Of a stretch of DNA of 64,000 nt, positions 18,316 through 62,731 are shown piece by piece; positions within the stretch are counted from its first letter, which is position 1, and the number at the start of each line of letters is the position of its first letter. Source of the stretch: a virus (Duplodnaviria; Heunggongvirae; Uroviricota; Caudoviricetes). Location of the stretch: IMG/VR virus record IMGVR_UViG_2799113095_000002; one strand, 5' to 3'. The notes under the pieces are model-generated. The model saw only the letters and a list, made by a program, of their open reading frames with translations. It was not told the origin of the DNA and made no database searches. Position numbers and translations under genes: made by a program.

Positions 18316-18715
18316 GGTCGCTCACCGGGGCTTCGTCGCCGTCGTCGCCCTCGTCGTCCGGGTCGGGCAGGTTCGGCGGCTCGTTCATCCCTGGCGTCGC
18401 GGCGTCCAGCCCGTAGAGCCGGGTCTGCTGTGCGAGGAGCCTCCGGCAGAACTCGGCTGCTTTCACGTCGCCGTTCAGCGCGTTGCCGAAATGGGCCCGA
18501 AACAGCGCCTCCGAGCGCTCCACGTGCATCGCCAACGCCTGATCCGCTAAGTAATCACGGCGTTTCGCCGCCTTGGCCATCTCCCGCTGAACGATCTTCT
18601 CGACGGCGGTGTGAGTGATGTTGTGCCGCTCACCGATCTGCCGGTACGGGACACCAGCGATGAACAGCTGGAGCACTTGCGCGTCGCGCTTGGCCCGGGT
18701 GATCCGGTCCGTCAC
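18281..18715 (-). CDS. terminase small subunit-like HTH DNA-binding protein
   Basis: ORF 18281..18856 trimmed to a GTG at 18715 (GTGA overlap). HTH PYRQIGERHNITHTAVEKIV. Acidic C-terminus. Directly upstream of TerL. Confidence 0.45.
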   Translation of the reverse strand: MTDRITRAKRDAQVLQLFIAGVPYRQIGERHNITHTAVEKIVQREMAKAAKRRDYLADQALAMHVERSEALFRAHFGNALNGDVKAAEFCRRLLAQQTRLYGLDAATPGMNEPPNLPDPDDEGDDGDEAPVSDLDDWRRKRTNA

Positions 18716-19569
18716 CGGCCCCCGGCCTTCGCGGAGCGGACGCCGGGTGGCGGCGTGGTCGGGGGGTGCCCGGCGTGCCGCTTCTTCGGGGCGAGGGTGA
18801 TCTCGATGTAGCCGGTGTCCTTCTTGCGGGTGTTCCTGCGCACCAGGCCCGGCCACTGCTTCTCCAGCTCCTCGACGCTGAAAGCGACCTTGGCGGGGGT
18901 TCTTTGGAACTCACCGGGCGCCTGGCAGCCGCCAGGGTCCGTGTAGTAGTTCGCTTGGGCGGCAATTCCGTCGTGCCGGACTGTGCCACCGTCGTACCAC
19001 CATGCGCGCAGGCTCGTTTCGTGCTCGTCCTTGTACGGGACGGTGAACTCGTGGACGGGATGGCCGGGCCGGTTGAAGAACCCGATCACGGTGAAGATCA
19101 GAAATCGGAGGCCTTCGCTGACGCGGCCCGGCGACATGTAGAAGGCATTGACGACCGGCGACAGACCCCACACGTACAGGTCCCGCCCAGCGGTCTCGGT
19201 GAACATCCGCCGGAACAGTGAATCCACATCAGCCACGGGGCGAAGGGTTTTCGAGTCCACTGCCTCCACCAGGCCCGTCACGTCGTCGTCCAGGCACACA
19301 ATCGGGGTACCAGGCGCGAACTGGGTGGGTATGTAGGTCCGCTGTGCCGTGATACCGCGCATCGGGGTGGCGTTGAGGCGGACACCCGTCCTGCCGGCCA
19401 CCTCCTGGTAGGCCTCCAGCTGCGGATCGTTGTCGTGGAGGAACACCGTGATCCGGGCCGGGTCCACTCCGGTCGCGTTCAGCCAGGCGAGCGTCTTCCG
19501 CTCCAGCCCTTCGGCGCGCTGGTAGGAGGGGATCACGATCTGGTACTCGCGGGCCGGGGCGCGCCTCAC
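18712..19569 (-). CDS. GT-A fold glycosyltransferase (DxD type)
   Basis: N-terminal YQIVIPSYQR resembles the GT2 VIPTYNR motif; a DxD-like IVCLDDDV follows. GTG start overlaps the oxygenase stop. Confidence 0.55.
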   Translation of the reverse strand: MRRAPAREYQIVIPSYQRAEGLERKTLAWLNATGVDPARITVFLHDNDPQLEAYQEVAGRTGVRLNATPMRGITAQRTYIPTQFAPGTPIVCLDDDVTGLVEAVDSKTLRPVADVDSLFRRMFTETAGRDLYVWGLSPVVNAFYMSPGRVSEGLRFLIFTVIGFFNRPGHPVHEFTVPYKDEHETSLRAWWYDGGTVRHDGIAAQANYYTDPGGCQAPGEFQRTPAKVAFSVEELEKQWPGLVRRNTRKKDTGYIEITLAPKKRHAGHPPTTPPPGVRSAKAGGR

Positions 19570-20405
19570 TAGGGCTGCCTCCGCTCAGCGATGAGCCGCG
19601 CCTGATTCTGCTCCCGAGCGGTGCGCGCCTTTTGGGCGTATTCAGTCTCCAATGCACCCTCCAAGCACGATTTCATGCCCTTGAGGGCGTAATAGACGAC
19701 GCTCAGCCGGTATCCGTCCGGCTTACGGAGCTGCATCGGGGTGACCCCATGCACCAGCTGATGACCCGGGAAGAAGACCGCGGTGCTGTCTCGGCACGGC
19801 AGCACCACCCCGTACTCGGGGATGTGCAGGTGCCCACCGTTCATGCCGCGCCGGAACACTGGCATCGCGCTCCAGGTTGGGAAGTTGAACCCGTCGCGGT
19901 GGTAGGGCAGCGTCGAGCTCCGGTTGATGACACCCGAAGTCCAGAGCTCGGAATCGCCCAGCTTCCAGGTAGATCCGACCTGGAGCATGGTTTCCCGGTC
20001 GCGGGCCTCGATTTTCGCGTCAATTTGGCGGAGCATCCTCGCCAGCGCCCCGGCCCACGCATCCAGCGCTGCCTCGGCTGCCGGGAACTCCTTGGCGACA
20101 CCGGACGCCCGGCACGCGTCGCGGCTGTAGCTTGGCCGCCGGGGCTGGTACCCGAAGTTGGCCGACAGGTTCTTCGCGCCCGACGCACGCCGCAGATCCG
20201 TGTACTTCAATGACAGGCAGGCCCGCCGCAGATCCGGCGCCTCCACCGGCAGCACCGCCATCACGGTCTCACCGGTATCGGCGTCTGTAGCGATGAATGG
20301 CTCGCTGTGGGTCGGCTCGTGCTCCCCGACCCGCGTACCGACGAGGGTTGTCGCCTCCTCCGGGCTCACCACCCGCCGTAAACTCAGCCGCTCCACCGGT
20401 GTCAC
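19569..20405 (-). CDS. 2-oxoglutarate/Fe(II)-dependent dioxygenase
   Basis: HxD (PYHRDGF), distal His (LVHGVTP) and RxS (YRLSVV) 14 residues later form the classical 2OG-oxygenase triad plus 2OG-binding Arg. GTG start at 20405 overlaps the ParB-like stop (GTGA). Confidence 0.6.
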   Translation of the reverse strand: MTPVERLSLRRVVSPEEATTLVGTRVGEHEPTHSEPFIATDADTGETVMAVLPVEAPDLRRACLSLKYTDLRRASGAKNLSANFGYQPRRPSYSRDACRASGVAKEFPAAEAALDAWAGALARMLRQIDAKIEARDRETMLQVGSTWKLGDSELWTSGVINRSSTLPYHRDGFNFPTWSAMPVFRRGMNGGHLHIPEYGVVLPCRDSTAVFFPGHQLVHGVTPMQLRKPDGYRLSVVYYALKGMKSCLEGALETEYAQKARTAREQNQARLIAERRQP

Positions 20406-21097
20406 TCCGCGACCGCTGGCGCTGCGTCCAGCGCGGTCTCTTCCTGCTTGAGCAGGTGCACCAACACGGATGCGTTGCTCTCCAGTGCGTGAGCGTCCGC
20501 CACCCGCTGCAACGTCTCGACCACCCACAGGTACTCGTCGCCGACGAACGTCATCACGACCATCCGCTGGTCGGACTGGTCATAGTTGGTCTTCAAGTCC
20601 TCCAGGGACGTTGCGGTGCCCTGGTTTCCGGCCAACTCGTCCTCCGGCACCGGTTCCAGCTCCTCCAGGGCCGCCGCCAGGTCATCGAGATCGTCTTGCA
20701 CGTAACCGGTGCCATCCAGGGTGTCCAGGGACTCCAGGATTTCCAGCAACGCCTCGTTGTCGTACCCACCCAAGGCTGGGATCTTGTTGTCAGCAACGAC
20801 AATCGCCTTGGCCTGCTGCTCATCCACGTCCACCAGCCAGCAGTCGATATCTGCCCAGCCGAGTTCCCGCGCCGCGAGCAAGGTGTGGTTACCGGCCAAC
20901 ACCTCGTTGGGGCGCCCGGTGTGCGTCCCACGGTTCACCACGATGGGCCGGTACTGGCCATTGGCGGTAAGCGAGGCCGCGATATCCGGGACCGAACCTC
21001 TACGCGGGTTGCCCTTGAAGGTTTTTAGCTGGGACACGGGTAGCCGCGCAGCCGAATTAACTGCGGTACCTGCGGTGTTAACTGTGGGGTCAGTCAT
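20402..21097 (-). CDS. ParB-like nuclease domain (ParB/Srx fold) protein
   Basis: N-terminal KGNPRRGSVPDIAASLTANGQYRPIVVNRGTHTGRPNEVLAGNHTLLAARELGW matches the ParB N-terminal domain pattern. Acidic C-terminal half. Confidence 0.6.
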   Translation of the reverse strand: MTDPTVNTAGTAVNSAARLPVSQLKTFKGNPRRGSVPDIAASLTANGQYRPIVVNRGTHTGRPNEVLAGNHTLLAARELGWADIDCWLVDVDEQQAKAIVVADNKIPALGGYDNEALLEILESLDTLDGTGYVQDDLDDLAAALEELEPVPEDELAGNQGTATSLEDLKTNYDQSDQRMVVMTFVGDEYLWVVETLQRVADAHALESNASVLVHLLKQEETALDAAPAVAE

Positions 21098-21441: not shown

Positions 21442-22170
21442 TTACCAGGTTTCGGACGGTTGGCCGATGGCGATGTTGGGTTCGGCGTCGCCTCGGCGGA
21501 TGTTGCAGTTCAGGTGGCTGGGTCGGAAGTTCCTGGGGTCCAGCGCGAGCTCGGGGGCCTCGGATACCGGGATGGCGTGGTCCACGGAGAAACTGTCCGG
21601 GTGGGGTGCTTTGAGGCTGTAGTCGATGGGGCGCTGGTCCAGCCAGCACACGTCGCCGCGCTCCTCGCACTCCTTACGGAAGGTGGCCTTGAGTTCTTGG
21701 TAGTGGCGGCCGCGTGGGCGTCCTTGTGCGTCGAGGCCGGGCACATGCTGGGCGGGGGTGCTGCCGGTGGTGGGGTGTTCCTCGTACCAGCGTTTGATGG
21801 CGCCCTGTAGCTGCCATGGCCGTTCGGCGCGTGCGCGTTCCATGACGGTGTCTTGGCCGGGGTCGATGGTGATGACCTCAGCGCCGTACGAGCGGTACTT
21901 CGTGAGCATCGCGGTGCTCGGGGTGGAGTGGATCAGGAACACGTCGTGCTCACCGACGAGGGTGAGGGCGGTGTCGATGGCTGCCTGTCGGGCCGCCTTG
22001 GTGACTGCCTTCACGTGGTCGGGGTGGTCGTGGCGGTGGGGGCTGTCGTCTTGTGGGGTGAGGGTGCAGGCGAGGGCGTCGTAGTCGATGGTGATGTCAC
22101 CGGGCCGCGAGTTGTCCCGCACCCATGTGGACTTGCCTGCTGCCGGCGGACCAACCACCACGAACAGCAC
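21442..22170 (-). CDS. P-loop nucleotide/polynucleotide kinase-like domain fused to an HNH nuclease domain
   Basis: ORF 21442..22314 trimmed to a GTG at 22170 (TAGTG overlap). Walker A VVVGPPAAGKSTW at the N-terminus. C-terminal VDHAIPVSE...PSHLNCN resembles the HNH motif. Confidence 0.55.
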   Translation of the reverse strand: MLFVVVGPPAAGKSTWVRDNSRPGDITIDYDALACTLTPQDDSPHRHDHPDHVKAVTKAARQAAIDTALTLVGEHDVFLIHSTPSTAMLTKYRSYGAEVITIDPGQDTVMERARAERPWQLQGAIKRWYEEHPTTGSTPAQHVPGLDAQGRPRGRHYQELKATFRKECEERGDVCWLDQRPIDYSLKAPHPDSFSVDHAIPVSEAPELALDPRNFRPSHLNCNIRRGDAEPNIAIGQPSETW

Positions 22171-22394
22171 TAGACCGCCACCAGGTGGCCGCACTCCAGG
22201 CAGCGGGGTGTACCGCAGTAACCGGTGATGCGCATGCGATCGTCGGCTGCCAGCACCACGGCGCCGTGGGCGGGTGCGCCCGGTCCGGCCAGGGTGCCGT
22301 CCAGGCGGAACCATTCGCTACCGCATTTGACGCACTGGTGGTTGGTGGTCGGTGGGGTGCGGTGCTCGCCGAGTTGGATGACGTTGTCTGCCAT
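22170..22394 (-). CDS. small zinc-ribbon protein
   Basis: MADNVIQLGEHRT...CVKCGSEW...CGTPRCLECGH carries two CxxC pairs. ORF 22170..22466 trimmed to M25. Confidence 0.4.
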   Translation of the reverse strand: MADNVIQLGEHRTPPTTNHQCVKCGSEWFRLDGTLAGPGAPAHGAVVLAADDRMRITGYCGTPRCLECGHLVAV

Positions 22395-29709: not shown

Positions 29710-30182
29710 CACGCCAGCTCCTCGCTTGTGAAGATCAGAGGTGCGAGCTCGCTCCACGCTTGACCAAGGTCACGACGCAGGAGCTCGATAGACCAATTGG
29801 CCGACCAGTCCCGTATCGGTTTCAAAGCCTCACGGGCAGTGGCGTTCATTGCGTCGGTCATCGTCCGGTAGTACGCGGGACCGCCGTCTTCTTCCACCCA
29901 TGCCCGTTGCGTGGCTTTGATAGCAGGGTCAGACATGGGGTTCTCCAGCGTTCCAGCCCTTGAGGCCTCCAGCGCGGCATTAAGCCGTTTGACAGCAGAC
30001 CTTTTCGCGGCCTCGGTTGGTAGTGACTCGTACCGCTTTAGCCATCTAGCGCCTGCCTCCTCCGCCCCTATGGCATCGGCCAGCTCAGCATCGGTGCGTT
30101 GCTCGGGGTCTGGGAAACATTCAAGTTCACGAGCCCGAGCTACGAGCTTGTCTCGGAATGCACTCGATTCCGTCATCGCCAT
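29709..30182 (-). CDS. hypothetical helical protein
   Basis: 157-aa ORF with an Ala/Glu/Arg-rich helical composition. Confidence 0.45.
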   Translation of the reverse strand: MAMTESSAFRDKLVARARELECFPDPEQRTDAELADAIGAEEAGARWLKRYESLPTEAAKRSAVKRLNAALEASRAGTLENPMSDPAIKATQRAWVEEDGGPAYYRTMTDAMNATAREALKPIRDWSANWSIELLRRDLGQAWSELAPLIFTSEELA

Positions 30183-31030
30183 CTACTTCGACTGACGGCG
30201 ATGTTGTGTGCGTTTCGGATCGCGCCGGAGAGTCGGGCTTCGGACCTGGTACCGCGAGTACGCCAGTGCCGCTGGTACATATCAACCAACCACGTGTTGA
30301 TCCGAACCCAGTCCGGGGTATCCGGCAGAGGCTCGGTCGAGATGAAGTGCTCCAGACTCCAGGTCAGATCCGCGAGCCAGCTCTTCACCTCGGGGAGCGA
30401 GGTCTCGCCGCGCCGAACGCGGAGCAGCGCATCACGATGGGCCTTGACCATCGGCAGGTGCAGCTTCCTCTCCGTGACGAGCTGGATACCCTGCATGCCG
30501 AGGCGCAGGGCGTGATACGCGTACTTGGTGTCGAAACCGTACTGTTCGATGAGTTCGGGCCGGTTGGTGTGCCGGTGATGGGTACCTTCGAGTCCTTCAC
30601 GCTGAGAGTTCAAGTAGCTCAAGAACTTCTGTCCAGCCTGCGTGGTGACGAACATCTCCGAGGCTGCCTGAAGTTCGGCGCCGAGTTGGCTTTTCACCGT
30701 CAGCTCATTGTCGGGTATCCAAAGCATCAGCAGCACTGAGGGATTGCCATTGGCGGCCAGCCGTGTCCACTTCCGCAGGCTGTAGACACACAGATCGAGG
30801 TCGCCGGGGCCGGAGCGGGCGCCGTCCGGTTGGGTGCGGTACATGTACTGCTCGAACTTCTCCAAACCGATTACGGCCTCGGGAGGTTCGATGCAGATGC
30901 CCATTTCGTCGCGGTCGTCGGCGCCGGTCGTGACACCATGCAGGCCGGAGCCGACCTGCCCACGAAGAATCGTGTTCTCGTCCGCGATAGCGCGGTGCCG
31001 CTCCGTGCCGTGGCGTGCTTCTGTACTCAC
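30173..31030 (-). CDS. Pol-beta-superfamily nucleotidyltransferase (GS-x9-DDxDE motif) with a roughly 160-aa C-terminal helical domain
   Basis: LRGQVGSGLHGVTTGADDRDEMGICIEP matches the hG[GS]x9-13 Dh[DE] nucleotidyltransferase signature. GTG start overlaps the upstream small ORF stop. Confidence 0.55.
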   Translation of the reverse strand: MSTEARHGTERHRAIADENTILRGQVGSGLHGVTTGADDRDEMGICIEPPEAVIGLEKFEQYMYRTQPDGARSGPGDLDLCVYSLRKWTRLAANGNPSVLLMLWIPDNELTVKSQLGAELQAASEMFVTTQAGQKFLSYLNSQREGLEGTHHRHTNRPELIEQYGFDTKYAYHALRLGMQGIQLVTERKLHLPMVKAHRDALLRVRRGETSLPEVKSWLADLTWSLEHFISTEPLPDTPDWVRINTWLVDMYQRHWRTRGTRSEARLSGAIRNAHNIAVSRSRWR

Positions 31031-31194: not shown

Positions 31195-31415
31195 CATCGG
31201 GAGGTGGCCGTTCTACCGTCGATGATTTTCTGGATGAGTTGGGGGCTGCACTTCACGGCGGTGGCGAGAGTGGCGTGGGTCCACTTCTCGCGCTCGTTCG
31301 TCCAGAGTTCCCGTACGAGCCGGTCGCGCTGGCTTCGGTGCTGGCTGGCGGAGTCGCGCTCTTCCCCGGCCAGCCGGTGGTGCTCGCGGGCTTGCTGTGC
31401 CCTCGGGTCCATCAA
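31194..31415 (-). CDS. small HTH DNA-binding protein
   Basis: C-terminal WTHATLATAVKCSPQLIQKIIDG looks like a helix-turn-helix. Confidence 0.4.
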   Translation of the reverse strand: MMDPRAQQAREHHRLAGEERDSASQHRSQRDRLVRELWTNEREKWTHATLATAVKCSPQLIQKIIDGRTATSR

Positions 31416-31846
31416 CGTCCCCTGATGTCCACGCGGCGGCGGGATATCTTCTCGATCGCGGTGATGGCTTCCTCTCCGGGGTCTTCGATCTCGAAGATGC
31501 CGTGCTCTGCTGCGTCACGGCCTGACTCGAACAGCGGGACAGGGCTCACATATTCGAATGCGGCCTGTACGTCTTCGGGAGACAGCGCGCCCGTGGCCGC
31601 GCCGATGCGTATCGCAAGTAGTTCCTCGCCGCCGTGGCAGCCGACCCAGCCCGCACAAAGCCGGGCCGCTGCGTCGGCGGCGTCCGTCTGGTGGCACAGG
31701 AACAGGCCGGGCGGCTGCTCCGAGGTGGGGCCGTCGTAGGCGATGAGTTTCTGATACTCGGTGGCATGCCACACGCCGCTGGGTACGTCCTCCCGGTAGG
31801 GGCACGACGCGCAGGGGCGCGGCGCGGGGCCGCCGACCCTGCCCAT
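31412..31846 (-). CDS. Cys/His-containing hypothetical protein co-transcribed downstream of rsr
   Basis: CASCPYR...LFLCHQ...CAGWVGCHGG. ATGA overlap with the rsr stop. Confidence 0.45.
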   Translation of the reverse strand: MGRVGGPAPRPCASCPYREDVPSGVWHATEYQKLIAYDGPTSEQPPGLFLCHQTDAADAAARLCAGWVGCHGGEELLAIRIGAATGALSPEDVQAAFEYVSPVPLFESGRDAAEHGIFEIEDPGEEAITAIEKISRRRVDIRGR

Positions 31847-31848
31847 CG

Positions 31849-33549
31849 TTACAGGTCACCTCGGGCGAAGTCCGAGATGAGCTGCGGTACAGCGCTATCG
31901 AACCCGGACACGTCGAGCTGGCGCGGGTCCGAAGGATCTGCGATGGTCTGCCGACCGCCGGTCATCGCGACCACCATCAGGCTGGTGTCCAGGCTGAGCT
32001 TGTTCCGGTACTCGGTGAGAGCCTGGTGCGGGTGGATACCCCCGTACCAGGTCTCGTTGTCGGTGAGGATCACGATGGCGTCGTAGGGGCGAAGCTGCGC
32101 CTTCGCCCAGATCATGGGGAGCGCGCAGTCGGTAGCGCCCATAGGGAGGCCTGCGGTGTATCGGCACACGTCATCGAGGCGGCGGCGCGGCGTGATGTCC
32201 AACTCCGTGATCCCTGATGAGCGGAAGCTCCCACCGGCCCCGGCGGTGAACCCGATGATGTCGTGGTTGGGCTCCACGTTGGCGGTCACCAGTGCGAGCG
32301 CGGCGGCGGCCTCGCGGCACGTCAGCGGCATACCGGAGATCGCGGCGCTCATGGAGCCGGAGATGTCCAGTGCCAGCAGGGTCCGCTTACCCGAGGGCTC
32401 GACGGCGCCGTAGGCGTTGTAGAACGCGGCGTCGAGCGCGTCAACGATGCGGCGGTTCGGAGTCCAGGTGGACTCACCGCGCGCAGAACGCCCAGAGGCA
32501 TAGGTGCGCTGTGCGACAAGGACATTGATCGGGTGGACGCGGCCCTTTCGTAGCCGGTCTGTGTCCTGGAGCTGCGCGGAGACCCGGCTGCCGAGCTGAC
32601 CGTTCAGCACGCCGAGGCGGGTTAGGCGGGGCAGCTGCCGCATGAGGGCGGTCTGCGGGAGGCCGTGCTCGATCAGCGCCTCCCAGATCGCAGGCTCGGT
32701 GAGGGCCTTGTCGGGGAACGCCTCCCACGGTAGGCCGTTGCCCCGGCGGATGATCGCCAGCCACTCGTTGACGGTGGTGGCACGCTGCGCGGCTTCGTAG
32801 TCCGCGATGATGGCAAGCGGGTGCCCGTCAGCCAGTTCCACATTGGGCAGCTTCGGTAGAGCGGGGTTGCGCTCTCCGGCCTTGAGCTGCTCCGGAGTGA
32901 GGAGCGGCTGCTTCCAGTTGTAGTCGTTGAGCCCCTTGCCGACAGCCCAGTTGAACGCCATGCGGCGTGCGGGGTCGCTGGTGGCGGGGCCGCTGAGCCG
33001 GAGCATGTCGCGGTGGGTCCAGCCGTCACGCTGCCGGTACTTGACCAGCTGGTAGGCGAGCCGGTCCACGGGCTTGTCCAGGTACCAGCTGGAGACGGCG
33101 CGCTTCATCGCCGGTCCCCAGCCCCGGAACTGCTCCATGTACTTGGTGAACAGGTACAGGTGGGTGGCGGTGCGCGCGACTCGGGGCAGTGCGGCGGCGG
33201 CGGCACGGCGGCCTTCCACGTTCTCGGAGGCCGAAGCGATAGCGAGCGCGAACAGGGCCGGGTTCTGCTTGGGGGCGCGTCCGGCCTCGGAGACCTCAAC
33301 GATCTTCTGCACGAGGGTGACGGGATCGGTTGCGGCGAGCCGGATCACGACATCGGCGGCGTCGCGGGTGAGGTCCTCGGCGGAGGTGTAGTAGGTGCCG
33401 CCGGTCGTGCCGAGGGTCAGGAATCGGTGGAGCCGGGTCCAGTCGTCGGCCTGGAAGGTGTAGCCCCCGGCGGCGTTCTTGACCTGGCGCGGGTCCGCCT
33501 TCTGGGCCTGAGGGGTGCGCCGCGTGCTGATCGAGGATAGAACGTCCAC
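31849..33549 (-). CDS. rsr: Ro60/Rsr-like ribonucleoprotein (TROVE domain plus C-terminal vWA domain with MIDAS DxSxS)
   Basis: 566 aa. GTG start with an AGGAG RBS 6 nt upstream. vWA MIDAS LLALDISGSMS...T...D. Size and domain order match bacterial Rsr. A Y-RNA-like array lies immediately upstream. Confidence 0.75.
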   Translation of the reverse strand: MDVLSSISTRRTPQAQKADPRQVKNAAGGYTFQADDWTRLHRFLTLGTTGGTYYTSAEDLTRDAADVVIRLAATDPVTLVQKIVEVSEAGRAPKQNPALFALAIASASENVEGRRAAAAALPRVARTATHLYLFTKYMEQFRGWGPAMKRAVSSWYLDKPVDRLAYQLVKYRQRDGWTHRDMLRLSGPATSDPARRMAFNWAVGKGLNDYNWKQPLLTPEQLKAGERNPALPKLPNVELADGHPLAIIADYEAAQRATTVNEWLAIIRRGNGLPWEAFPDKALTEPAIWEALIEHGLPQTALMRQLPRLTRLGVLNGQLGSRVSAQLQDTDRLRKGRVHPINVLVAQRTYASGRSARGESTWTPNRRIVDALDAAFYNAYGAVEPSGKRTLLALDISGSMSAAISGMPLTCREAAAALALVTANVEPNHDIIGFTAGAGGSFRSSGITELDITPRRRLDDVCRYTAGLPMGATDCALPMIWAKAQLRPYDAIVILTDNETWYGGIHPHQALTEYRNKLSLDTSLMVVAMTGGRQTIADPSDPRQLDVSGFDSAVPQLISDFARGDL

Positions 33550-33573
33550 CGTGAGCTCCTTGCTGGGTTAGGT

Positions 33574-33650
33574 GGCGCGGGCGTGTGAGTGACCGCCGGG
33601 GTTCATCCAGTTTCGAGGTTGGGGTAACCGACCGTCGTCCTGCTCGCGCC
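33574..33650 (-). ncRNA. Y-RNA-like module 1 (minimal: conserved 5-prime and 3-prime boxes only, no tRNA-like domain)
   Basis: On the minus strand it carries the shared boxes GYGAGCAGGACG...GGUCGGUUAYC (5-prime) and CCGGUCA...CACACGCCC (3-prime). Terminal GGCGCG/CGCGCC can pair. Confidence 0.45.
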
Positions 33651-33668
33651 AAAAGGGGGTTCGGGGTG

Positions 33669-33787
33669 ATGTGGGCGTGTATGTGCTGACCGGGATTTCG
33701 CTTTTACACCCGCACCGAGGCGCGAGCGACAGGGGTCGAACCTGCATTACCAATTGAGTGATAACCGACCGAGCGTCCTGCTCACAT
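33669..33787 (-). ncRNA. Y-RNA-like module 2 with tRNA-like D-loop and T-arm elements
   Basis: Minus strand: box GUGAGCAGGACGCUCGGUCGGUUAUC, then CUCAAUUGGUAAUG (D-loop-like), CAGGUUCGACCCCUG (T-arm), and 3-prime box CCGGUCAGCACAUACACGCCCAC. Confidence 0.55.
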
Positions 33788-33821
33788 CGAAAAGCTATGG
33801 AGTTATTGATGATTCGCGTAG

Positions 33822-33966
33822 GTGGTGCGGGCGTGTGATTGCTGACCGGTGTTTTAGGTGCTCTACCAAGCTGAGCTATACGGACGCACTACGCGCCCGC
33901 AGCTGGATTTGAACCAGCGACCACCCGCTCCAGATGCGATAACCGATCCTGCGTCCTGCTCACACC
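33822..33966 (-). ncRNA. Y-RNA-like module 3 (YrlA-type): circularly permuted tRNA-like domain flanked by the conserved terminal boxes
   Basis: Minus-strand order: 5-prime box, T-arm GCUGGUUCAAAUCCAGC, closed acceptor hairpin CGGGCGC-GUAGU-GCGUCCG (7 bp), D-arm UAGCUCAGCUUGGUAGAGCA, 3-prime box CCGGUCAGCAAUCACACGCCC. Confidence 0.6.
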
Positions 33967-33986
33967 ATCTACTACGAAGCCTTGGG

Positions 33987-34122
33987 GATGATGCGGGCGT
34001 GTGTGTGCTGACCGGGGGTAAGCGCTCTACCGACTGAGCTACAACCACTTTCGCGGCTGACGGGACTCGAACCCGCGACCTTTCCATTAGAAGTGGTAAC
34101 CGACCTGCGTCCTGCTCGCATC
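33987..34122 (-). ncRNA. Y-RNA-like module 4 (permuted tRNA-like domain)
   Basis: Minus strand: 5-prime box GCGAGCAGGACGCAGGUCGGUUACC, T-arm GCGGGUUCGAGUCCCGU, acceptor-like hairpin, D-arm GUAGCUCAGUCGGUAGAGCGC, 3-prime box CCGGUCAGCACACACACGCCCGC. Confidence 0.6.
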
Positions 34123-34146
34123 ATCAATGTGAAGTTGTATCCGGGA

Positions 34147-34314
34147 TGGCGTGGGCGTGTGAGGTGCTTACCGGCGTTGATCTTGGATCAATGCATTCGG
34201 CCGCTCTGCCACGTTCCGCCCGATGAAAGCCCGAAGCTCTTTCAAGCAGCCCGGCGGGATTCGAACCCGCGATCTGATGATTTTCAGATAACCGACTCGC
34301 GTCCTGCTCACGCC
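34147..34314 (-). ncRNA. Y-RNA-like module 5 (longest; permuted tRNA-like domain with Ser-type D-arm and extra hairpins)
   Basis: Minus strand: 5-prime box GGCGUGAGCAGGACGCGAGUCGGUUAUC, T-arm GCGGGUUCGAAUCCCGC, extended acceptor hairpin, D-arm GGCAGAGCGGCCGAAUGC, hairpin UUGAUCCAAGAUCAA, 3-prime box CACCUCACACGCCCACGCC. Confidence 0.55.
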
Positions 34315-34334
34315 ATCCATGTTTTTGTTGACTA

Positions 34335-34360
34335 CGCCAAGAACTATACCTCAGTAATGC
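34335..34360 (-). promoter_or_regulatory. candidate promoter (-10 TATAGT on minus strand) for the Y-RNA/rsr transcript
   Basis: AT-richer 150-bp gap between the immunity gene and module 5. The minus strand reads ...GAGGTATAGTTCTTGGCG about 35 nt upstream of module 5. No clear -35. Confidence 0.25.
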
Positions 34361-34472
34361 CTGTTCAGGGCATATTTTTTGAGGAAATGTTGATTCGCTG
34401 GAAGGTGACTCCCGTACCGGGGAAAGTATGCCGTCGAGGCCCTCGACCTGGCTACCGAATATCGGTGCCAGC

Positions 34473-35222
34473 TCAGTGAGGTACTTCGTCTAGGCCGTTC
34501 TCGCGGAGGGTCGCGGTGACCGCCTCCACGACGCGCGTAGCGGGCCAGTCGTCGGGCGCGGAGATCAGGGTGCCCCCGGCCAGCTCGGTCTTTGTGAGAA
34601 GGTCAACGAGATGGTCAATCTCGCCGACTTCCTTGCTGATCCAGGTGCGGTATCCGGCACCGATCTTCCAATTGTTGCGCCGAGCAAGGCGCATTGCCGC
34701 AAGATCAGTGAGGGTGAAAGTGGCGGGCTGCCAGGTTGAAGCCACAGCGGCGCACACCTTGTCGCCAACCTCGCTAGAGACGCCGCCCGGCGCGGTCTCG
34801 GTCAGGTCGATGTGGAGGTTGTGCGCCGGCAGTCTCCCGCCGAGACCGATAGACCCCGCACCGATGAAGACCTTGGCAGTGATGGCAGGACCGACGCCCT
34901 TCAGGACGATCGAGTACCCCTCCCTGGGGAGAGCATCGCCGCTGGCGCCGTCAGGGAGTGCTTCGCGCACCGGGCAGCTCCGAACGATGTCGGCCAATGC
35001 CTCGCTGGGCCCAGCCCAAGTCTCCCAGTGGTGCCCCTTCGGGATGTCCCACTGCGCGATTCCCAGATCCGTTCCTAGCTGCGTCAGCAGCGCATCGGTG
35101 CGCGCCGCGATCCATTCGGGTGATTCGCCGGTCGCGACCCAGAACGCGTTCACGAACGACTCTCTCGCCCAGACGGGAGACGCGTTGGTTGGCCCGTTCA
35201 CAGCATCGAATTCTACGGTCAT
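34473..35222 (-). CDS. putative immunity protein of the polymorphic toxin system
   Basis: 249-aa ORF whose ATG overlaps the toxin stop (ATGA). Assigned by the toxin/immunity gene-order convention only. Confidence 0.45.
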   Translation of the reverse strand: MTVEFDAVNGPTNASPVWARESFVNAFWVATGESPEWIAARTDALLTQLGTDLGIAQWDIPKGHHWETWAGPSEALADIVRSCPVREALPDGASGDALPREGYSIVLKGVGPAITAKVFIGAGSIGLGGRLPAHNLHIDLTETAPGGVSSEVGDKVCAAVASTWQPATFTLTDLAAMRLARRNNWKIGAGYRTWISKEVGEIDHLVDLLTKTELAGGTLISAPDDWPATRVVEAVTATLRENGLDEVPH

Positions 35223-37102
35223 GGCTTCTCCGGGGTGTAGATCACGTCAACGTCGAGACCGCGGCCCTCTAGCAGATTCCGAATTATCGCTGCGCTCTGT
35301 GGGTTAGCGACGTGCCACTCAAGGCCAGTCTCAGGGGGCAGGACGCGTATCTGTCGCTGAGCCTCTCTGACGAGCTCGTTCTGGATGTTCTCAGTCCACG
35401 GCGCATCTGGACTCTTGATCAGGGGCGTGTAGTTGTGCTTTGCGTCTAGGAACACCTGCTGATTGCCCCGTTCGATGGGTCCGCTGTCGAATCTGACCAC
35501 CTCGCCGGTCTCGGGGTTGGTCATGACGTACTCGGGGATGCGTCCGTCAGGTGTTCGTTCGATACCCGTGATCTGCTCCTGGAAGCCCATCCAGGGCTTG
35601 TCGGGACCACGGTTGACATGCTCCCAACCTGGCGTGGGGTCACCCTTGGTCCAGGTTGCCTCTGGGGTGTGGGGCGGCCACCCACCCGGATGGTGCGGAT
35701 CGCCCGACGTGTAGTGCTGCCCCACGCTGGGGTCGAACTGATCGGGTGTCGGTAGTTGGTGCTGGGTTGGGGGTGGGGAGTGGTCGGCGACCGTGGGCGG
35801 TGGATGGTCTACAACCGGCGCGGGGTGGGTTGCGTCACTCGGGTCTGCGGTGTGCGCTGCGGGTGCTGGTGTGTCATGGAGTGCGCCGGGGCTCGGAAGG
35901 TCCGGGTGCGCGCCCAGGCGTGCAGCGGCGGCTTCTTCGAGTCCAGCGCGTGGCAACAGGCCTTCGGGACCGCCTGCCATTAGCGCCCCGCCATCGACCA
36001 GTTTTTCCCCGAAGTATTGGCCGGGGTTTTCGATGTTGTGCTTGATGCCTTCGGCGATATCGGCGCCCGGCGGGGTGGTCATGTGGTGCTTAAAGGACTC
36101 CCATTCTCGCCTACCGGCCTCTTCATTGGCCTCCCAAAAACCCTTGTCCCCCAACCCAAGACGGTCCCGCAGATCCGTGAACGGCGCAACCAACTTATCG
36201 ACGCCCTTGTCAATGCCCTCGGAAATATCCGTCTTGAAACGCTCGGCAGCCGATGGTTTGTGCTCCTCCGGTGGCTTGTCGTTGCGATTCAGGTAGGTGA
36301 CGCTTTCGCCCAGGCCACCCACCTTGGTCTTGTCGATAGTGTCCTTAGCGAACGGGCCGTACTGCGGGGCATTCGGATCGGCAGCAGCGGTGGCAGCGGT
36401 CGGGGTTGTCGCGGGATTCTTGATGTGCTCCAGCTTGTCGCCGAGCGTCCCGGCACCAGGATCGATGGAGGCCGGATCGGTGGCCTTGGGGTACCAGTCC
36501 TTGTAGAAGTTCGCGGGCTGGGCGCTCGGGTCGCCGGGCTTCGGGGTCGCGGCGTCGCGCAGGGCCTTGCGCCCGTCCACAAGCGCCGTTTTGGGGTTGA
36601 TGCAGCCGGTGATCGTTTGGGCGGTGGCGTCGGCCTGGGTTTTGAGGGTTTGACAGCCCTTCTCCCACTTGGCGACATACTCTTCGATCTGCCGTTGGAT
36701 GTCGGCGACGTGGGCGCGGTTTCGGGCTATCGAGTCATCGCTTTCACCCTCGGCGGGGTGGTAGTCCATCTTGTAGTCCTGAGCGATGGAGACGCCCTGG
36801 TCCTTGTGCGCCAGCACGCTCTCGATGAGGCGTTGGCCGTTGACCAGGGGATCGACCACCTCGTATTGGATGGTGGCGGCAACGAGTTTTCCGCCGTCTT
36901 CGGCGGTGTCGTGGGTGTTATCCGAGCCGTGGCAATCAGTGGATGCAGTGTCATAGGCGGCGTTCGAGGTGCGCCCGGTCCATTCGGTGCCATCGGGAGC
37001 CCCGACCCACCGTTTGTATTCGTCGTAGATTTCCTTGAACTGCCGGGTCTGTGGAAGCCAGGTATCCACCACCGCCATATAGTCATTGGCCTTCTTGGCC
37101 AT
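35219..37102 (-). CDS. polymorphic toxin: N-terminal WXG100-type (T7SS/ESX) secretion domain, long Pro/Thr/His-rich linker, C-terminal PD-(D/E)xK nuclease-like toxin domain
   Basis: ORF 35219..37231 trimmed to MAKKANDYMAVVDTWLPQ (or the GTG 21 nt upstream, which has an AGGGGG RBS). WxG motif KRWVGAPDGTEWTG. C-terminal EYVMTNPETGEVVRFDSGPIERGNQQVFLDAKHNY carries D...D-A-K. Confidence 0.6.
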   Translation of the reverse strand: MAKKANDYMAVVDTWLPQTRQFKEIYDEYKRWVGAPDGTEWTGRTSNAAYDTASTDCHGSDNTHDTAEDGGKLVAATIQYEVVDPLVNGQRLIESVLAHKDQGVSIAQDYKMDYHPAEGESDDSIARNRAHVADIQRQIEEYVAKWEKGCQTLKTQADATAQTITGCINPKTALVDGRKALRDAATPKPGDPSAQPANFYKDWYPKATDPASIDPGAGTLGDKLEHIKNPATTPTAATAAADPNAPQYGPFAKDTIDKTKVGGLGESVTYLNRNDKPPEEHKPSAAERFKTDISEGIDKGVDKLVAPFTDLRDRLGLGDKGFWEANEEAGRREWESFKHHMTTPPGADIAEGIKHNIENPGQYFGEKLVDGGALMAGGPEGLLPRAGLEEAAAARLGAHPDLPSPGALHDTPAPAAHTADPSDATHPAPVVDHPPPTVADHSPPPTQHQLPTPDQFDPSVGQHYTSGDPHHPGGWPPHTPEATWTKGDPTPGWEHVNRGPDKPWMGFQEQITGIERTPDGRIPEYVMTNPETGEVVRFDSGPIERGNQQVFLDAKHNYTPLIKSPDAPWTENIQNELVREAQRQIRVLPPETGLEWHVANPQSAAIIRNLLEGRGLDVDVIYTPEKP

Positions 37103-37136
37103 GAACTCATCCAGTGGCGTCACCACGCGCGTGCCC

Positions 37137-37457
37137 CTATGCCCGCTTCGGTGGCTGATAGATGCTGGGCAGATTGCCGTACCCGGCCGCCAGTGAACTC
37201 TCCGTGATCTTGAAAGCTTGCTGGGCCTCATCAGCGAAATCAGCGATCGTATTCAACCGCGCTGCCCCGATCCGCTTCACATCCGCGATGGCCTTGGACA
37301 CTCCATACAGCGCCGCCAAACCTGGATCAGCACCAGCCGGTGGCGAGACACTGGCCGCCGTGCTCTGCGTCAGCTGACCGGCGAGCGTCCTCAGATGCGG
37401 ACCGAGCTTCCCCAAGGCCGCAAGATCAAACTTGAGAACGTTCTCATCGCCCGACAT
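37137..37457 (-). CDS. small helical protein upstream of the toxin (possible secretion partner or chaperone)
   Basis: ORF 37137..37496 trimmed to MSGDENVLKFDLAALGKL, which has a GAAGGGGG RBS. About 106 aa. 35 nt upstream of the toxin start. Confidence 0.4.
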   Translation of the reverse strand: MSGDENVLKFDLAALGKLGPHLRTLAGQLTQSTAASVSPPAGADPGLAALYGVSKAIADVKRIGAARLNTIADFADEAQQAFKITESSLAAGYGNLPSIYQPPKRA

Positions 37458-37551
37458 GACACCCCCTTCGGCAACCAACTGTGTGATTGCCAGCACACTA
37501 CAGGAGCAGTAGTGGGTTCCGCAGGGGGAGTTGCCAGGGGTGCGGTGTTCG

Positions 37552-38073
37552 CTAGTCGAACAAGGCCAGCTGGCCTACGGGTTCCTCATCGAACTGGAAC
37601 GCCCGACGAACAAGCACCTTCTCCAGGTCGAGTATGCGCCAGTGCTCGGCGCGGGCGGTGTCGTCCTCGGCGGCGGTGGGGTGGTAGCGCTTGCATGGCT
37701 CCGAGTGCTCGTGGCGTGCCTCGTGCTGCCAAGGGCAGTGGCACCAGCCATACTGCGTGAGGTTGAGCGCGTGGCTGTCTTTGCGGCATCGCTCGATCTC
37801 GGCGCGGAGGTCCGCCGGCAGGGCGAGGCCGTACGCGGTGATCCGGGTGACCTTGATCGACAGGATGGGCGTTCCGAACGCCGGGCAGTGGACCTTTCCG
37901 CCGTTGGTGCTGAACCCGCCCCGGAGCCATTCGGGGCCGCCTTCAACGTGGCGCAGCGTGCCGCCCCAGTGGCTCTGGGCTAGGTAGTCTGCGCCTGCCT
38001 TGCTGAGGAGTGCGTCGAGGATCATCCAGCCGCCCATCGCGAACAGGAGCCAGCGTTCTTCTTCGGTCAGCAC
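37552..38073 (-). CDS. Cys/His-rich hypothetical protein
   Basis: 173-aa ORF; contains ...CPAFG...WCHCPWQHEARHEH... Confidence 0.4.
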   Translation of the reverse strand: MLTEEERWLLFAMGGWMILDALLSKAGADYLAQSHWGGTLRHVEGGPEWLRGGFSTNGGKVHCPAFGTPILSIKVTRITAYGLALPADLRAEIERCRKDSHALNLTQYGWCHCPWQHEARHEHSEPCKRYHPTAAEDDTARAEHWRILDLEKVLVRRAFQFDEEPVGQLALFD

Positions 38074-47409: not shown

Positions 47410-47891
47410 GGTGTGTTCTCCGCTCTCTTGATGATCGCCATGCCCGCAGCCCGGTATGCGAGGGCCTGTACTACGTGCTGTGGCAATGGTTCTGGTGTCT
47501 TGTTGATCGAGACTTTGCGCTTCACTTCGACGCGCCCGAGCGGGTATATAGCGGTCGGTTCGTGAATCCACCACAGGCCGCAGCCGTAAACGGGCGGATG
47601 CTCGATGAGTTCGGCGGGCACGACGTACACGAACCGGTGGCACACCCGGCGCCACGGTTGGACCTTCTCCCAGGTCTCCCTTGCTGCGTCGGCCTTGGAG
47701 ACCTTGATCTCAATCGCGGTGCGCTCCAGGCTGTCGAACATCAGCGCGTCTATCCGACGCGTGTAGGGCTGGCCGTGCCCATCGGGTAGCTCAGCCCAGG
47801 TTGGATGGTCGTCGTGTATCACCACTTCGGGTACCAGAGCGGCGTCGCGGTGGTGTTTACGCAGCGCGGCGAGCACATCGGCGGCGTTCAC
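47406..47891 (-). CDS. PD-(D/E)xK nuclease-like protein
   Basis: RIDALMFDSLERTAIEIKVSKAD gives a D...E-x-K arrangement. 161 aa. Confidence 0.4.
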   Translation of the reverse strand: MNAADVLAALRKHHRDAALVPEVVIHDDHPTWAELPDGHGQPYTRRIDALMFDSLERTAIEIKVSKADAARETWEKVQPWRRVCHRFVYVVPAELIEHPPVYGCGLWWIHEPTAIYPLGRVEVKRKVSINKTPEPLPQHVVQALAYRAAGMAIIKRAENTP

Positions 47892-62683: not shown

Positions 62684-62731
62684 TTACTATTCAATTGTTG
62701 CAGGTCAACAGGTTTGGCCTGCAGACCGACG

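What the first reader, a model, noticed from the sequence alone, without database searches (positions are those of the whole stretch)
31849..34360. Ro60/Rsr gene preceded by five tandem, diverged Y-RNA-like modules
Upstream of a TROVE+vWA gene (31849..33549), the 740-bp non-coding stretch 33574..34314 holds five units of 77-168 nt on the same strand. The units share a 5-prime box (GUGAGCAGGACG...GGUCGGUUAUC) and a 3-prime box (CCGGUCAGCA..CACACGCCC) that can pair. Each unit has a different, tRNA-like interior. This is the Rsr/Y-RNA (YrlA-type) arrangement, here on a prophage and amplified into an array with one minimal unit and one elaborate unit. In this window it is the clearest candidate for an RNA-based accessory system.
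Basis: partly seen in the sequence, partly recalled or inferred. Interest (0 to 1): 0.9.

Follow-up and report, generated by a model that had tools for sequence, protein, structure and literature searches.

The report
Prophage Ro60 gene with five Y RNAs
A mycobacterial prophage carries a Ro60/Rsr RNA-binding protein gene preceded by five tandem Y-RNA genes, three of which mimic different tRNAs; the system is a known kind, here in an expanded and diversified form that turns out to be common in actinobacterial phages.

Summary
ORF 31849..33549 (-) is a full-length Ro60/Rsr protein with TROVE and vWA domains. The gene-free stretch upstream holds exactly five same-strand RNA modules: U1 34318..34144, U2 34125..33987, U3 33972..33818, U4 33788..33668, U5 33651..33573.

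All five share the stem and box architecture of M. smegmatis YrlA and YrlB, which were shown experimentally to bind Rsr. A covariance model built only from other loci finds these five sites in the window, at 141 to 48 bits. The next hit scores 20 bits.

U1, U2 and U3 carry circularly permuted tRNA-like domains. When computationally un-permuted, ARAGORN reads them as Leu(CAA)-like class II, Arg(UCU)-like and Gln(CUG)-like. U4 is YrlB-like, with a T arm only. U5 is a minimal module that ends 10 nt before the rsr ribosome-binding site.

So this is the known Rsr/Y-RNA system, not a new kind. Tandem arrays are also the rule rather than the exception. I found 1-4 units in 80 actinobacterial genome loci and up to 7 in prophage contigs.

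Two things look undescribed. The arrays reach 5-7 heterogeneous units, with local cassette replacement between near-identical phages. The hairpin before the T arm has an anticodon-loop signature with a hypervariable triplet. Function and expression were not tested.

The parts
31849..33549 (-). rsr: Ro60/Rsr ortholog, 566 aa, TROVE ring plus vWA domain with MIDAS motif DISGS
   Evidence: Pfam TROVE 6.8e-50 and vWA_Ro60 3.5e-56. PDB sequence matches to 2NVO, 9NEN and 1YVP at E<=4e-93. 67% identical to M. smegmatis Rsr P0020.
34144..34318 (-). U1: Y RNA module, 175 nt. 10-bp closing stem and conserved boxes. The interior is a permuted class II tRNA mimic: long variable-arm hairpin, T arm, long acceptor-like hairpin, Ser/Leu-type D arm, and an extra anticodon-like hairpin with loop UCCAAGA.
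   Evidence: Model R1 scores 69.4 bits, E 3e-14. MFE z-score -3.81. ARAGORN calls the un-permuted construct tRNA-Leu(CAA)-like with a long variable arm.
33987..34125 (-). U2: YrlA-type Y RNA, 139 nt. 9-bp closing stem, hairpin with loop CUUCUAA, T arm, 7-bp acceptor-like hairpin, D arm.
   Evidence: R1 scores 141.3 bits, E 8e-31. Rfam YrlA 33.4 bits. 75% identical to M. smegmatis YrlA. MFE recovers all arms, z -2.25. Un-permuted construct reads as tRNA-Arg(UCU)-like.
33818..33972 (-). U3: YrlA-type Y RNA, about 150 nt. Hairpin with loop AUCUGGA, T arm, acceptor-like hairpin, D arm.
   Evidence: R1 scores 101.9 bits, E 1e-21. Rfam YrlA 37.9 bits over the full model. Un-permuted construct reads as tRNA-Gln(CUG)-like. 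This position is replaced in relatives L003 and L004.
33668..33788 (-). U4: YrlB-like Y RNA, 121 nt. Boxes, a hairpin, a T arm (GCAGGUUCGACCCCUGU) and one further GC-rich hairpin. No D arm.
   Evidence: R1 scores 64.0 bits, E 5e-13 with the D arm skipped. MFE keeps the closing stem and T arm, but z is only -0.47.
33573..33651 (-). U5: minimal Y module, 79 nt. Closing stem, boxes and helix 2 with a 23-nt interior. It ends 10 nt before the rsr Shine-Dalgarno sequence.
   Evidence: R1 scores 48.4 bits, E 2e-9 with the whole tRNA-like part skipped. Equivalent 75-85 nt units lie 18-45 nt before the rsr start in at least 35 other loci.
33557..33562 (-). AAGGAG ribosome-binding site of rsr, 6 nt before the GTG at 33549
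   Evidence: Read from the sequence.
34343..34348 (-). TATAGT, a -10-like hexamer 24 nt upstream of U1 and a candidate promoter of the array (inferred only)
   Evidence: Read from the sequence. The sigma-70 consensus scan found no full promoter.
34357..34373 (.). Perfect hairpin ATGCC..GGCAT between the upstream gene and the array. It is terminator-like on the + strand (followed by T6) and preceded by A6 on the - strand.
31412..31846 (-). DUF6283 gene directly after rsr, with a 2-nt gap
   Evidence: Pfam 6.3e-38. It follows rsr only in this phage lineage among 160 loci.
30173..31030 (-). RlaP-family (PF10127) nucleotidyltransferase, an RNA-repair-associated 3'-end NMP adder
   Evidence: Pfam 2.3e-35. 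phrog_388 3e-64. Near rsr in 9 of 160 loci. Biochemistry in PMC12776372.

Best explanation
This is a prophage-borne Rsr (Ro60) / Y-RNA locus of the actinobacterial YrlA/YrlB type, with five Y RNA genes in tandem directly upstream of rsr on the same strand.

Shown here:
- Each unit is closed by its own 6-10 bp terminal stem.
- Inside that stem lie an A.C mismatch, a GC/GC pair, a conserved internal loop (5' AGGACG.. / 3' ..CACAC) and a 6-bp helix (GGUCGG/CCGGUC).
- This invariant module is the same one found in M. smegmatis YrlA and YrlB, which co-immunoprecipitate with Rsr.
- The variable interior is a permuted tRNA mimic in U1-U3, a T-arm-only domain in U4, and absent in U5.

Inferred:
- The five units and rsr, and probably DUF6283 and onward, are transcribed as one precursor from a promoter just upstream of U1.
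- The short single-stranded spacers (14-29 nt) are cut by host RNases and trimmed back to the terminal stems.
- Each mature RNA binds the outer face of the Rsr ring through the conserved module.
- The tRNA-like domains then act as in other bacteria. They gate the Rsr cavity and tether Rsr to tRNA- or RNA-binding partners such as PNPase. [quoted passage not shown]
- Together with the nearby RlaP nucleotidyltransferase, the locus most likely serves degradation or repair of structured or damaged RNA, tRNA especially, during infection or stress.
- U5 lies next to the rsr ribosome-binding site. It may also act in cis as an Rsr-binding leader giving feedback on rsr translation.
For: Protein identity.

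Five units. Covariance model R1 was built from 16 units of other loci, including M. smegmatis YrlA and none of the window lineage. It finds exactly these five sites at 141, 102, 69, 64 and 48 bits. The next hit, 20 bits, is a true tRNA.

Homology to validated RNAs: the Northern probe sequences for M. smegmatis YrlA and YrlB in PMC4201824 map onto locus L168. That locus shows the same boxes and closing stems.

Covariation of the module: on 83 distinct units, 86.8% of cells are paired against 75% in shuffles and 30-40% when slid. There are 228 double-change cells against 71. Pair 8-71 reads AU 33, GC 28, CG 14, UA 6. In M. abscessus prophages GUGAGC/GCCCAC becomes GUGAAC/GUUCAC. Frequent U-G and G-U pairs in helix 2 make the structure specific to the rsr-sense strand.

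tRNA-like domain: RNAalifold recovers the T arm, a 7-bp acceptor-like hairpin with 5-13 double changes per pair, and the D arm. On the 16-sequence alignment 94.4% of cells are paired and 18 pairs have compensatory changes.

Context and conservation: the five-unit array is conserved in five related prophage contigs whose Rsr is 93-98% identical. No terminator-like site lies on the - strand between U1 and the DUF6283 gene. Array GC is 58% against 64% for the window.
Against: There are no expression data for this element. Co-transcription, processing and Rsr binding are all inferred.

Rfam YrlA scores (37.9 and 33.4 bits) are below the gathering score of 69.

Thermodynamic z-scores of U4 (-0.47) and U5 (-1.39) are unremarkable.

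No consensus sigma-70 promoter was found.

None of the roughly 37 window ORFs I scanned against Pfam or PHROGs is an RNA ligase (RtcB or Rnl). This was not an exhaustive screen. A complete repair pathway is therefore not encoded near rsr.

The 3' partners used for the covariation count were selected by requiring at least 5 bp plus the GC pair. That inflates the percent paired, though not the diversity of pair types.
Confidence: 0.85

Rival explanations
1. The array is only a long structured 5' leader of the rsr mRNA, with cis-regulatory Rsr-binding sites or attenuators, and does not yield stable trans-acting small RNAs.
For: The units lie directly upstream of rsr on the same strand with no terminators between them. 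U5 ends 10 nt before the ribosome-binding site. A minimal unit at that position is conserved in at least 35 loci.
Against: The homologous M. smegmatis units are discrete RNAs that co-immunoprecipitate with Rsr (PMC4201824). Each unit has its own independently covarying closing stem, as expected for separately excised RNAs. The tRNA-like domains are conserved for tertiary-fold features that a leader does not need.
Confidence: 0.07
2. The units are decayed or rearranged tRNA genes from a phage tRNA cluster, with no functional link to Rsr.
For: T-arm and D-arm sequences are tRNA-like. The Rfam tRNA model gives weak hits in the region, 25.3 and 15.3 bits. Mycobacteriophages often carry tRNA clusters.
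Against: ARAGORN finds no tRNA in the native sequence. The T arm precedes the D arm, so the order is permuted. All five units, including two without a tRNA-like core, keep the same non-tRNA module found in Rsr-bound M. smegmatis RNAs. These arrays are always upstream of rsr and co-oriented with it, in 160 loci.
Confidence: 0.03
3. The repeats work at the DNA level, as iterons, protein-binding sites or recombination sites, and not as RNA.
For: Five direct repeats of two boxes at spacings of 94 to 192 bp.
Against: Compensatory changes keep intramolecular pairing between each unit's own ends. The many G-U pairs would be A.C mismatches on the other strand. The interior arms covary as RNA helices.
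Confidence: 0.02

Closest known systems
Mycobacterium smegmatis Rsr with YrlA and YrlB (Chen et al. 2014, RNA 20:1715, PMC4201824)
   Same: Rsr is 67% identical. The Y RNAs lie directly upstream of rsr on the same strand. The closing stem, 5' box, 3' box and helix 2 are the same. U2 is 75% identical to YrlA, with the same CUUCUAA hairpin loop and a 7-bp acceptor-like stem. U4 resembles YrlB in having a T arm and no D arm.
   Different: There are five units instead of two. One unit is a class II tRNA-like unit (U1) and one is minimal (U5). The locus is on a prophage and is followed by DUF6283 and RlaP genes that the M. smegmatis locus lacks.
Salmonella Typhimurium rsr-yrlBA-rtcBA RNA repair operon (YrlA structure PDB 6CU1; bioRxiv 10.1101/312249; PMC7790460)
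   Same: Two-module Y RNA: an Rsr-binding stem plus a circularly permuted tRNA-like domain with T arm, closed acceptor stem and D arm. It is associated with RNA repair enzymes.
   Different: In Salmonella the Y RNAs lie 3' of rsr and the operon is controlled by RtcR and sigma-54. Salmonella YrlA lacks the anticodon-like hairpin. Here the array is 5' of rsr, RtcB and RtcA are absent, and the Rfam model built on that lineage scores only 33-38 bits.
Deinococcus radiodurans Rsr/Yrn1/PNPase complex (RYPER)
   Same: The Y RNA tethers Rsr to an exoribonuclease. Several small RNAs are encoded upstream of rsr (PMC4201824).
   Different: It is a different Y RNA lineage. Both strands of the Ro-binding helix resemble metazoan Y RNAs, and there is no full D arm.
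Thermus phage phiLo Ro60 with Yrl1 and Yrl2 (NAR 2025, PMC12135203)
   Same: A phage-encoded Ro60 with adjacent Y-like RNAs that it binds. It can assemble with host PNPase.
   Different: Two RNAs, not five. It is a distant protein that did not appear among the sequence matches to solved structures.
M. abscessus cluster MabK prophages prophiT37-1 and prophiGD43A-5 ('Ro-like RNA binding protein', PMC8092301)
   Same: These are the closest annotated phage records, at 77% nucleotide identity over rsr. They have a 1.4-kb unannotated gap upstream of Ro holding 6-7 units of the same type.
   Different: Their box variant is GUGAAC/GUUCAC. Different neighbours: a BrnT-like toxin gene lies upstream. The Y RNAs are not annotated in the records.

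Membership tests
Ro60/Rsr protein family | TROVE (HEAT-repeat ring) domain followed by a vWA domain | tested here: met
   Pfam TROVE residues 23-347 at 6.8e-50 and vWA_Ro60 residues 389-562 at 3.5e-56. Full-length matches to 2NVO and 1YVP.
Ro60/Rsr protein family | MIDAS motif (DxSxS) in the vWA domain | tested here: met
   LALDISGSM in the translation. The aligned column is invariant in 14 homologs.
Ro60/Rsr protein family | Binds Y RNA on the outer ring surface | not testable with these tools
   Needs EMSA or RIP.
YrlA-type bacterial Y RNA (Rfam RF02553; Chen et al. 2014) | Encoded within 4 kb of rsr on the same strand | tested here: met
   All five units lie 24-770 nt upstream of rsr on the - strand.
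YrlA-type bacterial Y RNA (Rfam RF02553; Chen et al. 2014) | Score at or above the Rfam gathering threshold (69 bits) | tested here: not met
   U3 scores 37.9 bits and U2 33.4 bits. U1, U4 and U5 give no hit. This is a curation cut-off, not a biological feature. The validated M. smegmatis YrlA scores 45.1 bits and also fails.
YrlA-type bacterial Y RNA (Rfam RF02553; Chen et al. 2014) | Conserved T arm and D arm separated by an acceptor-like hairpin (permuted tRNA-like domain) | tested here: met
   Met for U1, U2 and U3. Not met for U4 (T arm only) or U5 (none), which are therefore YrlB-like and minimal Y RNAs, not YrlA.
YrlA-type bacterial Y RNA (Rfam RF02553; Chen et al. 2014) | GNCGAAN0-1G motif near the 5' end (proposed Rsr contact) | tested here: inconclusive
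   The best matches in the 5' box are GACGCAGG and GACGACGG, at 7 of 8 positions. M. smegmatis has GUCGAUCG. The invariant positions in 83 units are GC.GGA.G and UCGGUUA.
YrlA-type bacterial Y RNA (Rfam RF02553; Chen et al. 2014) | Sequence and structure homology to an experimentally Rsr-bound Y RNA | tested here: met
   The same module as M. smegmatis YrlA and YrlB. Model R1, which includes M. smegmatis YrlA, scores the units at 48-141 bits.
YrlA-type bacterial Y RNA (Rfam RF02553; Chen et al. 2014) | Expressed as a stable small RNA bound by Rsr | not testable with these tools
   No transcript data for this element.
Canonical tRNA genes | Cloverleaf in native 5'-3' order detectable by tRNA finders | tested here: not met
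   ARAGORN and Rfam tRNA at gathering threshold find only tRNA-Arg and tRNA-Ser at 62.6-62.8 kb. Cloverleaves appear only after manual un-permutation.
CRISPR-like repeat-spacer array (considered because of repeated boxes with variable inserts) | One direct repeat of constant length separated by unrelated spacers of similar size | tested here: not met
   There are two different boxes that pair with each other around each insert. Inserts are 23-120 nt and are structured, tRNA-like sequences.

The most novel reading that the evidence does not exclude
The array is a battery of Rsr-anchored, circularly permuted mimics of particular tRNAs. In this window these are Leu(CAA)-like class II, Arg(UCU)-like and Gln(CUG)-like. 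Their anticodon-like loops keep U33, R37 and A38 but change the triplet freely, and whole cassettes are swapped between near-identical phages.

The phage would use them as decoys or damage sensors for tRNA-targeting nucleases, such as VapC/MazF-type toxins or anticodon-nuclease defence systems. The signal would feed into Rsr-directed decay or RlaP-assisted repair. The rsr-proximal minimal unit would additionally autoregulate rsr translation.
Probability: 0.12. Interest if true: 0.8.

Novelty: new variant of a known kind. Interest (0 to 1): 0.45.

Why it matters

Loci like this one offer natural variation that could be used to address that question. They carry five to seven different tRNA-like modules on one invariant Rsr-binding scaffold. 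They also show an anticodon-loop signature and cassette replacement between near-identical phages.

The units are unannotated in public phage records. Rfam's threshold misses the whole actinobacterial branch, including a validated member. The analysis therefore also exposes an annotation gap.

Otherwise the locus is an ordinary member of a known system.

Tried and rejected
Rfam at gathering threshold gave no hit in the region. The sub-threshold hits needed the M. smegmatis control to be interpretable.

An nhmmer scan with the 5' and 3' boxes under-counted units. It first suggested that chromosomal loci have only 1-2 units and that arrays of 4 or more are phage-specific. Covariance model R1 corrected this to 1-4 in genome loci.

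RNAduplex-based pairing of unit ends mis-assigned some last units into the rsr coding region. It was replaced by an anchored search.

The MFE fold of U1 does not recover its T arm, so comparative and ARAGORN evidence was used instead.

An automated 'longest stem' search for the pre-T hairpin picked alternative pairings such as ACUUCU/AGAGGU, which are not conserved in M. smegmatis. The model-based alignment was used instead.

Supplementary tables of Chen et al. 2014 and three reviews (PMC10870794, PMC6047535, PMC6542706) are not held. I could not check whether 5-7-unit arrays or the anticodon-like hairpin are already listed there.

The sigma-70 promoter scan found nothing.

CRISPR-like, tRNA-pseudogene and DNA-iteron readings were considered and rejected (see rival explanations and membership test).
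Full report
**What is in the sequence.** The 566-aa ORF at 31849..33549 on the minus strand is a complete Ro60/Rsr protein.
- Pfam gives TROVE at 6.8e-50 and the Ro60-type vWA domain at 3.5e-56.
- Sequence matches to solved structures are D. radiodurans Rsr 2NVO (6e-98), RO60 9NEN (1e-95) and Xenopus Ro60 1YVP (4e-93), all over the full length.
- The MIDAS motif DISGS is present.
- The protein is 67% identical to M. smegmatis Rsr and 75-77% identical to TROVE proteins of M. abscessus prophages.

**The upstream stretch.** It has no ORF with the third-position GC bias of real genes in this window, and gene callers left it empty in four public assemblies. Its GC content is 58% against 64% for the window.

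The box pattern AGCAGGACG-N3-6-TCGGTTAYC occurs five times, only there and only on the rsr strand, with zero matches expected by chance. The repeat finder reports five copies of each box.

**Anatomy of a unit.** From outside to inside each unit has:
- a terminal stem of 6-10 bp whose sequence differs in every unit (GGAUGGCGUG/CACGCCAUCC, GAUGAUGCG/CGCAUCAUC, and so on);
- an A.C mismatch;
- a GC/GC pair;
- a conserved internal loop (5' AGGACG.., 3' ..CACAC);
- a 6-bp helix, GGUCGG/CCGGUC;
- a variable interior.

With the stems included, the units are:

| Unit | Coordinates (- strand) | Length |
|---|---|---|
| U1 | 34318..34144 | 175 nt |
| U2 | 34125..33987 | 139 nt |
| U3 | 33972..33818 | 155 nt |
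| U4 | 33788..33668 | 121 nt |
| U5 | 33651..33573 | 79 nt |

Spacers between units are 14-29 nt. U5 ends 10 nt before the AAGGAG site of rsr.

The MFE fold of every unit closes through the terminal stem and the GC pair. Z-scores are -3.8, -2.3, -2.0, -0.5 and -1.4 for U1 to U5.

**Link to experimentally known Y RNAs.** Chen et al. 2014 (PMC4201824) showed that M. smegmatis Rsr immunoprecipitates YrlA (about 147 nt) and YrlB, both encoded just upstream of rsr. I fetched that locus (L168).

The published probe sequences map to two tandem units with the same terminal stem, boxes and helix as the window units. U2 is 75% identical to YrlA, including the hairpin CCA-CUUCUAA-UGG.

Rfam's YrlA model gives only 37.9 bits for U3 and 33.4 bits for U2, below its gathering score of 69. 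The validated M. smegmatis YrlA scores 45.1 bits and also fails. The cut-off therefore excludes the actinobacterial branch and does not argue against membership.

**Independent model.** I aligned 16 YrlA-type units from other loci, none from the window lineage. On the hand-drawn structure 94.4% of cells are paired, against 82% in shuffles and 34-44% when slid. Eighteen pairs have compensatory changes.

The covariance model built from this alignment (R1) finds exactly five hits in the 64-kb window. All five are the array units: 141.3, 101.9, 69.4, 64.0 and 48.4 bits, with E-values from 8e-31 to 2e-9. The next hit is 20 bits on the T arm of the genuine tRNA-Arg.

**Covariation of the Rsr-binding module.** I used 83 distinct units from about 60 loci, reduced to their ends.
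- The proposed pairs are 86.8% paired, against 75% shuffled and 30-40% slid.
- There are 228 double-change cells against 71 in shuffles. Individual pairs show, for example, AU 33, GC 28, CG 14, UA 6.
- Caveat: the 3' partner was chosen by requiring at least 5 bp plus the GC pair. Percent paired is therefore inflated, though the variety of pair types is not.
- In the M. abscessus prophages GUGAGC/GCCCAC is replaced by GUGAAC/GUUCAC, a compensatory change that also closes the A.C mismatch.
- The near-invariant U-G and frequent G-U pairs in the inner helix make the fold specific to the rsr-sense strand.

**The interiors.** RNAalifold on 26 YrlA-like units, including U2 and U3, recovers a T arm (GCGGGUUCGAxUCCCGY), a 7-bp acceptor-like hairpin with heavy covariation, and an invariant D arm, GCUC...GAGC. 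The T arm precedes the D arm, which is the circularly permuted tRNA-like domain described for YrlA (bioRxiv 10.1101/312249).

I made un-permuted constructs by hand. I opened the acceptor-like loop and excised the Rsr module. ARAGORN at default thresholds called them as follows:
- U2: tRNA-Arg(UCU)-like.
- U3: tRNA-Gln(CUG)-like.
- M. smegmatis YrlA: tRNA-Arg(UCU)-like.
- U1: tRNA-Leu(CAA)-like, class II, with a long variable arm.

The excision points were my choice, so this illustrates tRNA-likeness and is not an unbiased test.

In U2 and U3 the Rsr module emerges from the 5' strand of the anticodon-like stem. In U1 it sits between a complete anticodon-like arm and the variable arm. U4 keeps a T arm and one GC-rich hairpin, like YrlB. 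U5 has only 23 nt inside.

**An anticodon-loop signature.** Chen et al. modelled the hairpin before the T arm as a variable arm. In 125 R1 hits from 100 loci, 59 of 101 distinct hairpins have 7-nt loops. Among those 59:

| Loop position | Residue | Count |
|---|---|---|
| 32 | pyrimidine | 52/59 |
| 33 | U | 52/59 |
| 34-36 | 29 different triplets | - |
| 37 | purine | 52/59 |
| 38 | A | 50/59 |

Several '8-nt' loops are the same motif in a shifted register. The alignment is fitted to a model that carries this signature, so the numbers lean towards it. Even so, constant flanks around a free triplet is what an anticodon loop looks like. I found no mention of this in the papers held.

- The same five-unit array is present in five IMG/VR prophage contigs with Rsr 93-98% identical.
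- With R1, the 80 genome loci (one per species) have 1-4 units upstream of rsr. L014, L018, L027, L067 and L085 have four, and M. smegmatis-type loci have two.
- Viral contigs reach 7 units (L097, L099, L100), 6 (prophiT37-1 and eight MabK-like contigs) and 5 (L101, L113, L175).
- In every case checked the array is co-oriented with rsr and directly upstream of it.

Tandem Y RNA arrays are thus the norm in Actinobacteria. Five or more units were seen only on phage or prophage contigs in this sample.

A 75-85 nt minimal unit ending 18-45 nt before the rsr start recurs in at least 35 loci.

Within the window lineage U3 is only 74% and 86% identical to the position-3 units of L003 and L004. The flanking units are 97-99% identical. 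That points to local replacement of one tRNA-like cassette.

**Context.** The window is a siphovirus-type prophage with nearly all genes on the minus strand.
- Structural genes: portal, prohead protease, capsid, tape measure and a Gp37-like tail protein.
- The closest annotated records are M. abscessus cluster MabK prophages prophiT37-1 and prophiGD43A-5, where the gene is called 'Ro-like RNA binding protein' and the upstream 1.4 kb is unannotated.
- Downstream of rsr lie a DUF6283 gene and, 800 bp on, an RlaP-family nucleotidyltransferase. RlaP adds one or two NMPs to damaged RNA 3' ends and helps restore repaired tRNA (PMC12776372). It is read as an RNA-repair component in phages (PMC7824862).
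- RlaP lies within 3.5 kb of rsr in 9 of 160 loci. DUF6283 does so only in this lineage.
- Upstream lies a polymorphic-toxin cassette like those expressed from M. abscessus prophages in lysogens.
- No RNA ligase appeared among the roughly 37 ORFs scanned.

**Mechanism.**
- Shown: a Ro60/Rsr gene; five co-oriented RNA modules homologous to Rsr-bound Y RNAs; covariation-supported stems; permuted tRNA-like cores in three of them.
- Inferred from the family's established behaviour (PMC4201824; 10.1101/312249; PMC12135203): one precursor transcript from upstream of U1, where a -10-like TATAGT lies at 34348..34343 and no minus-strand terminator follows before the end of the DUF6283 gene. Cleavage in the spacers and trimming to the terminal stems follow. 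Each RNA then binds Rsr through the invariant module. [quoted passage not shown] The net role would be decay or repair of structured or damaged RNA, plausibly with RlaP.
- More speculative: U5 as an autoregulatory leader, and the units as tRNA-specific decoys or sensors.

**Verdict.** It is a member of a known system, in an expanded and diversified form that is widespread but unannotated. No expression or binding data exist for this element.

Noticed in passing
window 18712-20528 (-): Adjacent genes with a TET-associated glycosyltransferase domain (TAGT, 5e-7) and a weak Tet_JBP 2OG-Fe dioxygenase domain (1.4e-5, below the Pfam cut-off). This is a likely phage DNA base hypermodification pair.
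   Followed up: no
window 34473-38073 (-): A polymorphic-toxin cassette lies just upstream of the Y RNA array. It has a 670-aa protein with a weak Tox-REase-5 C-terminus, a 249-aa possible immunity protein and a 173-aa phrog_12222 protein. About 1 kb is 85-88% identical to PT-Imm cassettes of M. abscessus prophages. In one Logan contig (L292) the toxin gene is replaced by small genes while the 249-aa gene stays.
   Followed up: partly
L168 3239-3303 (M. smegmatis CP009495): Rfam YrlA (RF02553, gathering score 69 bits) gives only 45.1 bits for the experimentally validated M. smegmatis YrlA. Actinobacterial Y RNAs are therefore systematically missed by standard annotation.
   Followed up: yes
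L026, L028, L030, L037, L042, L048 (Promicromonospora and related), about 530-2060 in locus coordinates, - strand: A second pair of Y-like units (41-109 bits with R1) lies on the opposite strand 1.5-2.8 kb upstream of rsr, in addition to or instead of the rsr-proximal units.
   Followed up: no
L003 3586-3733 and L004 3582-3732 versus window 33818-33972: The position-3 unit is 74% and 86% identical to U3, while neighbouring units are 97-99% identical. In L003 the T arm, acceptor-like hairpin and D arm are of a different tRNA-like type, with D arm GGUGUAACGGCAGCAC and hairpin loop GUCGAAA.
   Followed up: partly
L097, L099, L100 2426-3473; L001 7740-8614 (-): M. abscessus MabK-type prophage contigs carry 6-7 Y-like units in the unannotated 1.4-kb gap upstream of the 'Ro-like RNA binding protein'. 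In prophiT37-1 the gap is bounded by a divergently transcribed BrnT-like toxin gene.
   Followed up: partly
window 34357-34373: A perfect hairpin ATGCCTGTTCAGGGCAT is followed by T6 on the + strand and nested in a longer inverted repeat, CCTCA...TGAGG. On the + strand it looks like an intrinsic terminator facing the array, although no + strand gene is evident. On the - strand it could end the upstream gene or act as an operator before the candidate -10.
   Followed up: no
window 62610-62820 (-): tRNA-Arg(ACG) and tRNA-Ser(GCU) lie next to HTH-type regulator genes at 61088-62220. MabK prophages integrate at the 3' end of a tRNA gene with attP inside the repressor gene (PMC8092301), so this is probably the prophage-host junction.
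   Followed up: no
window 21442-22314 (-), 47888-49494 (-), 53754-54641 (-): Other accessory genes: an AAA_33 (kinase-like) plus HNH protein with weak matches, a calcineurin-like phosphoesterase next to a DUF5131 protein, and an SPFH/Band 7 protein.
   Followed up: no
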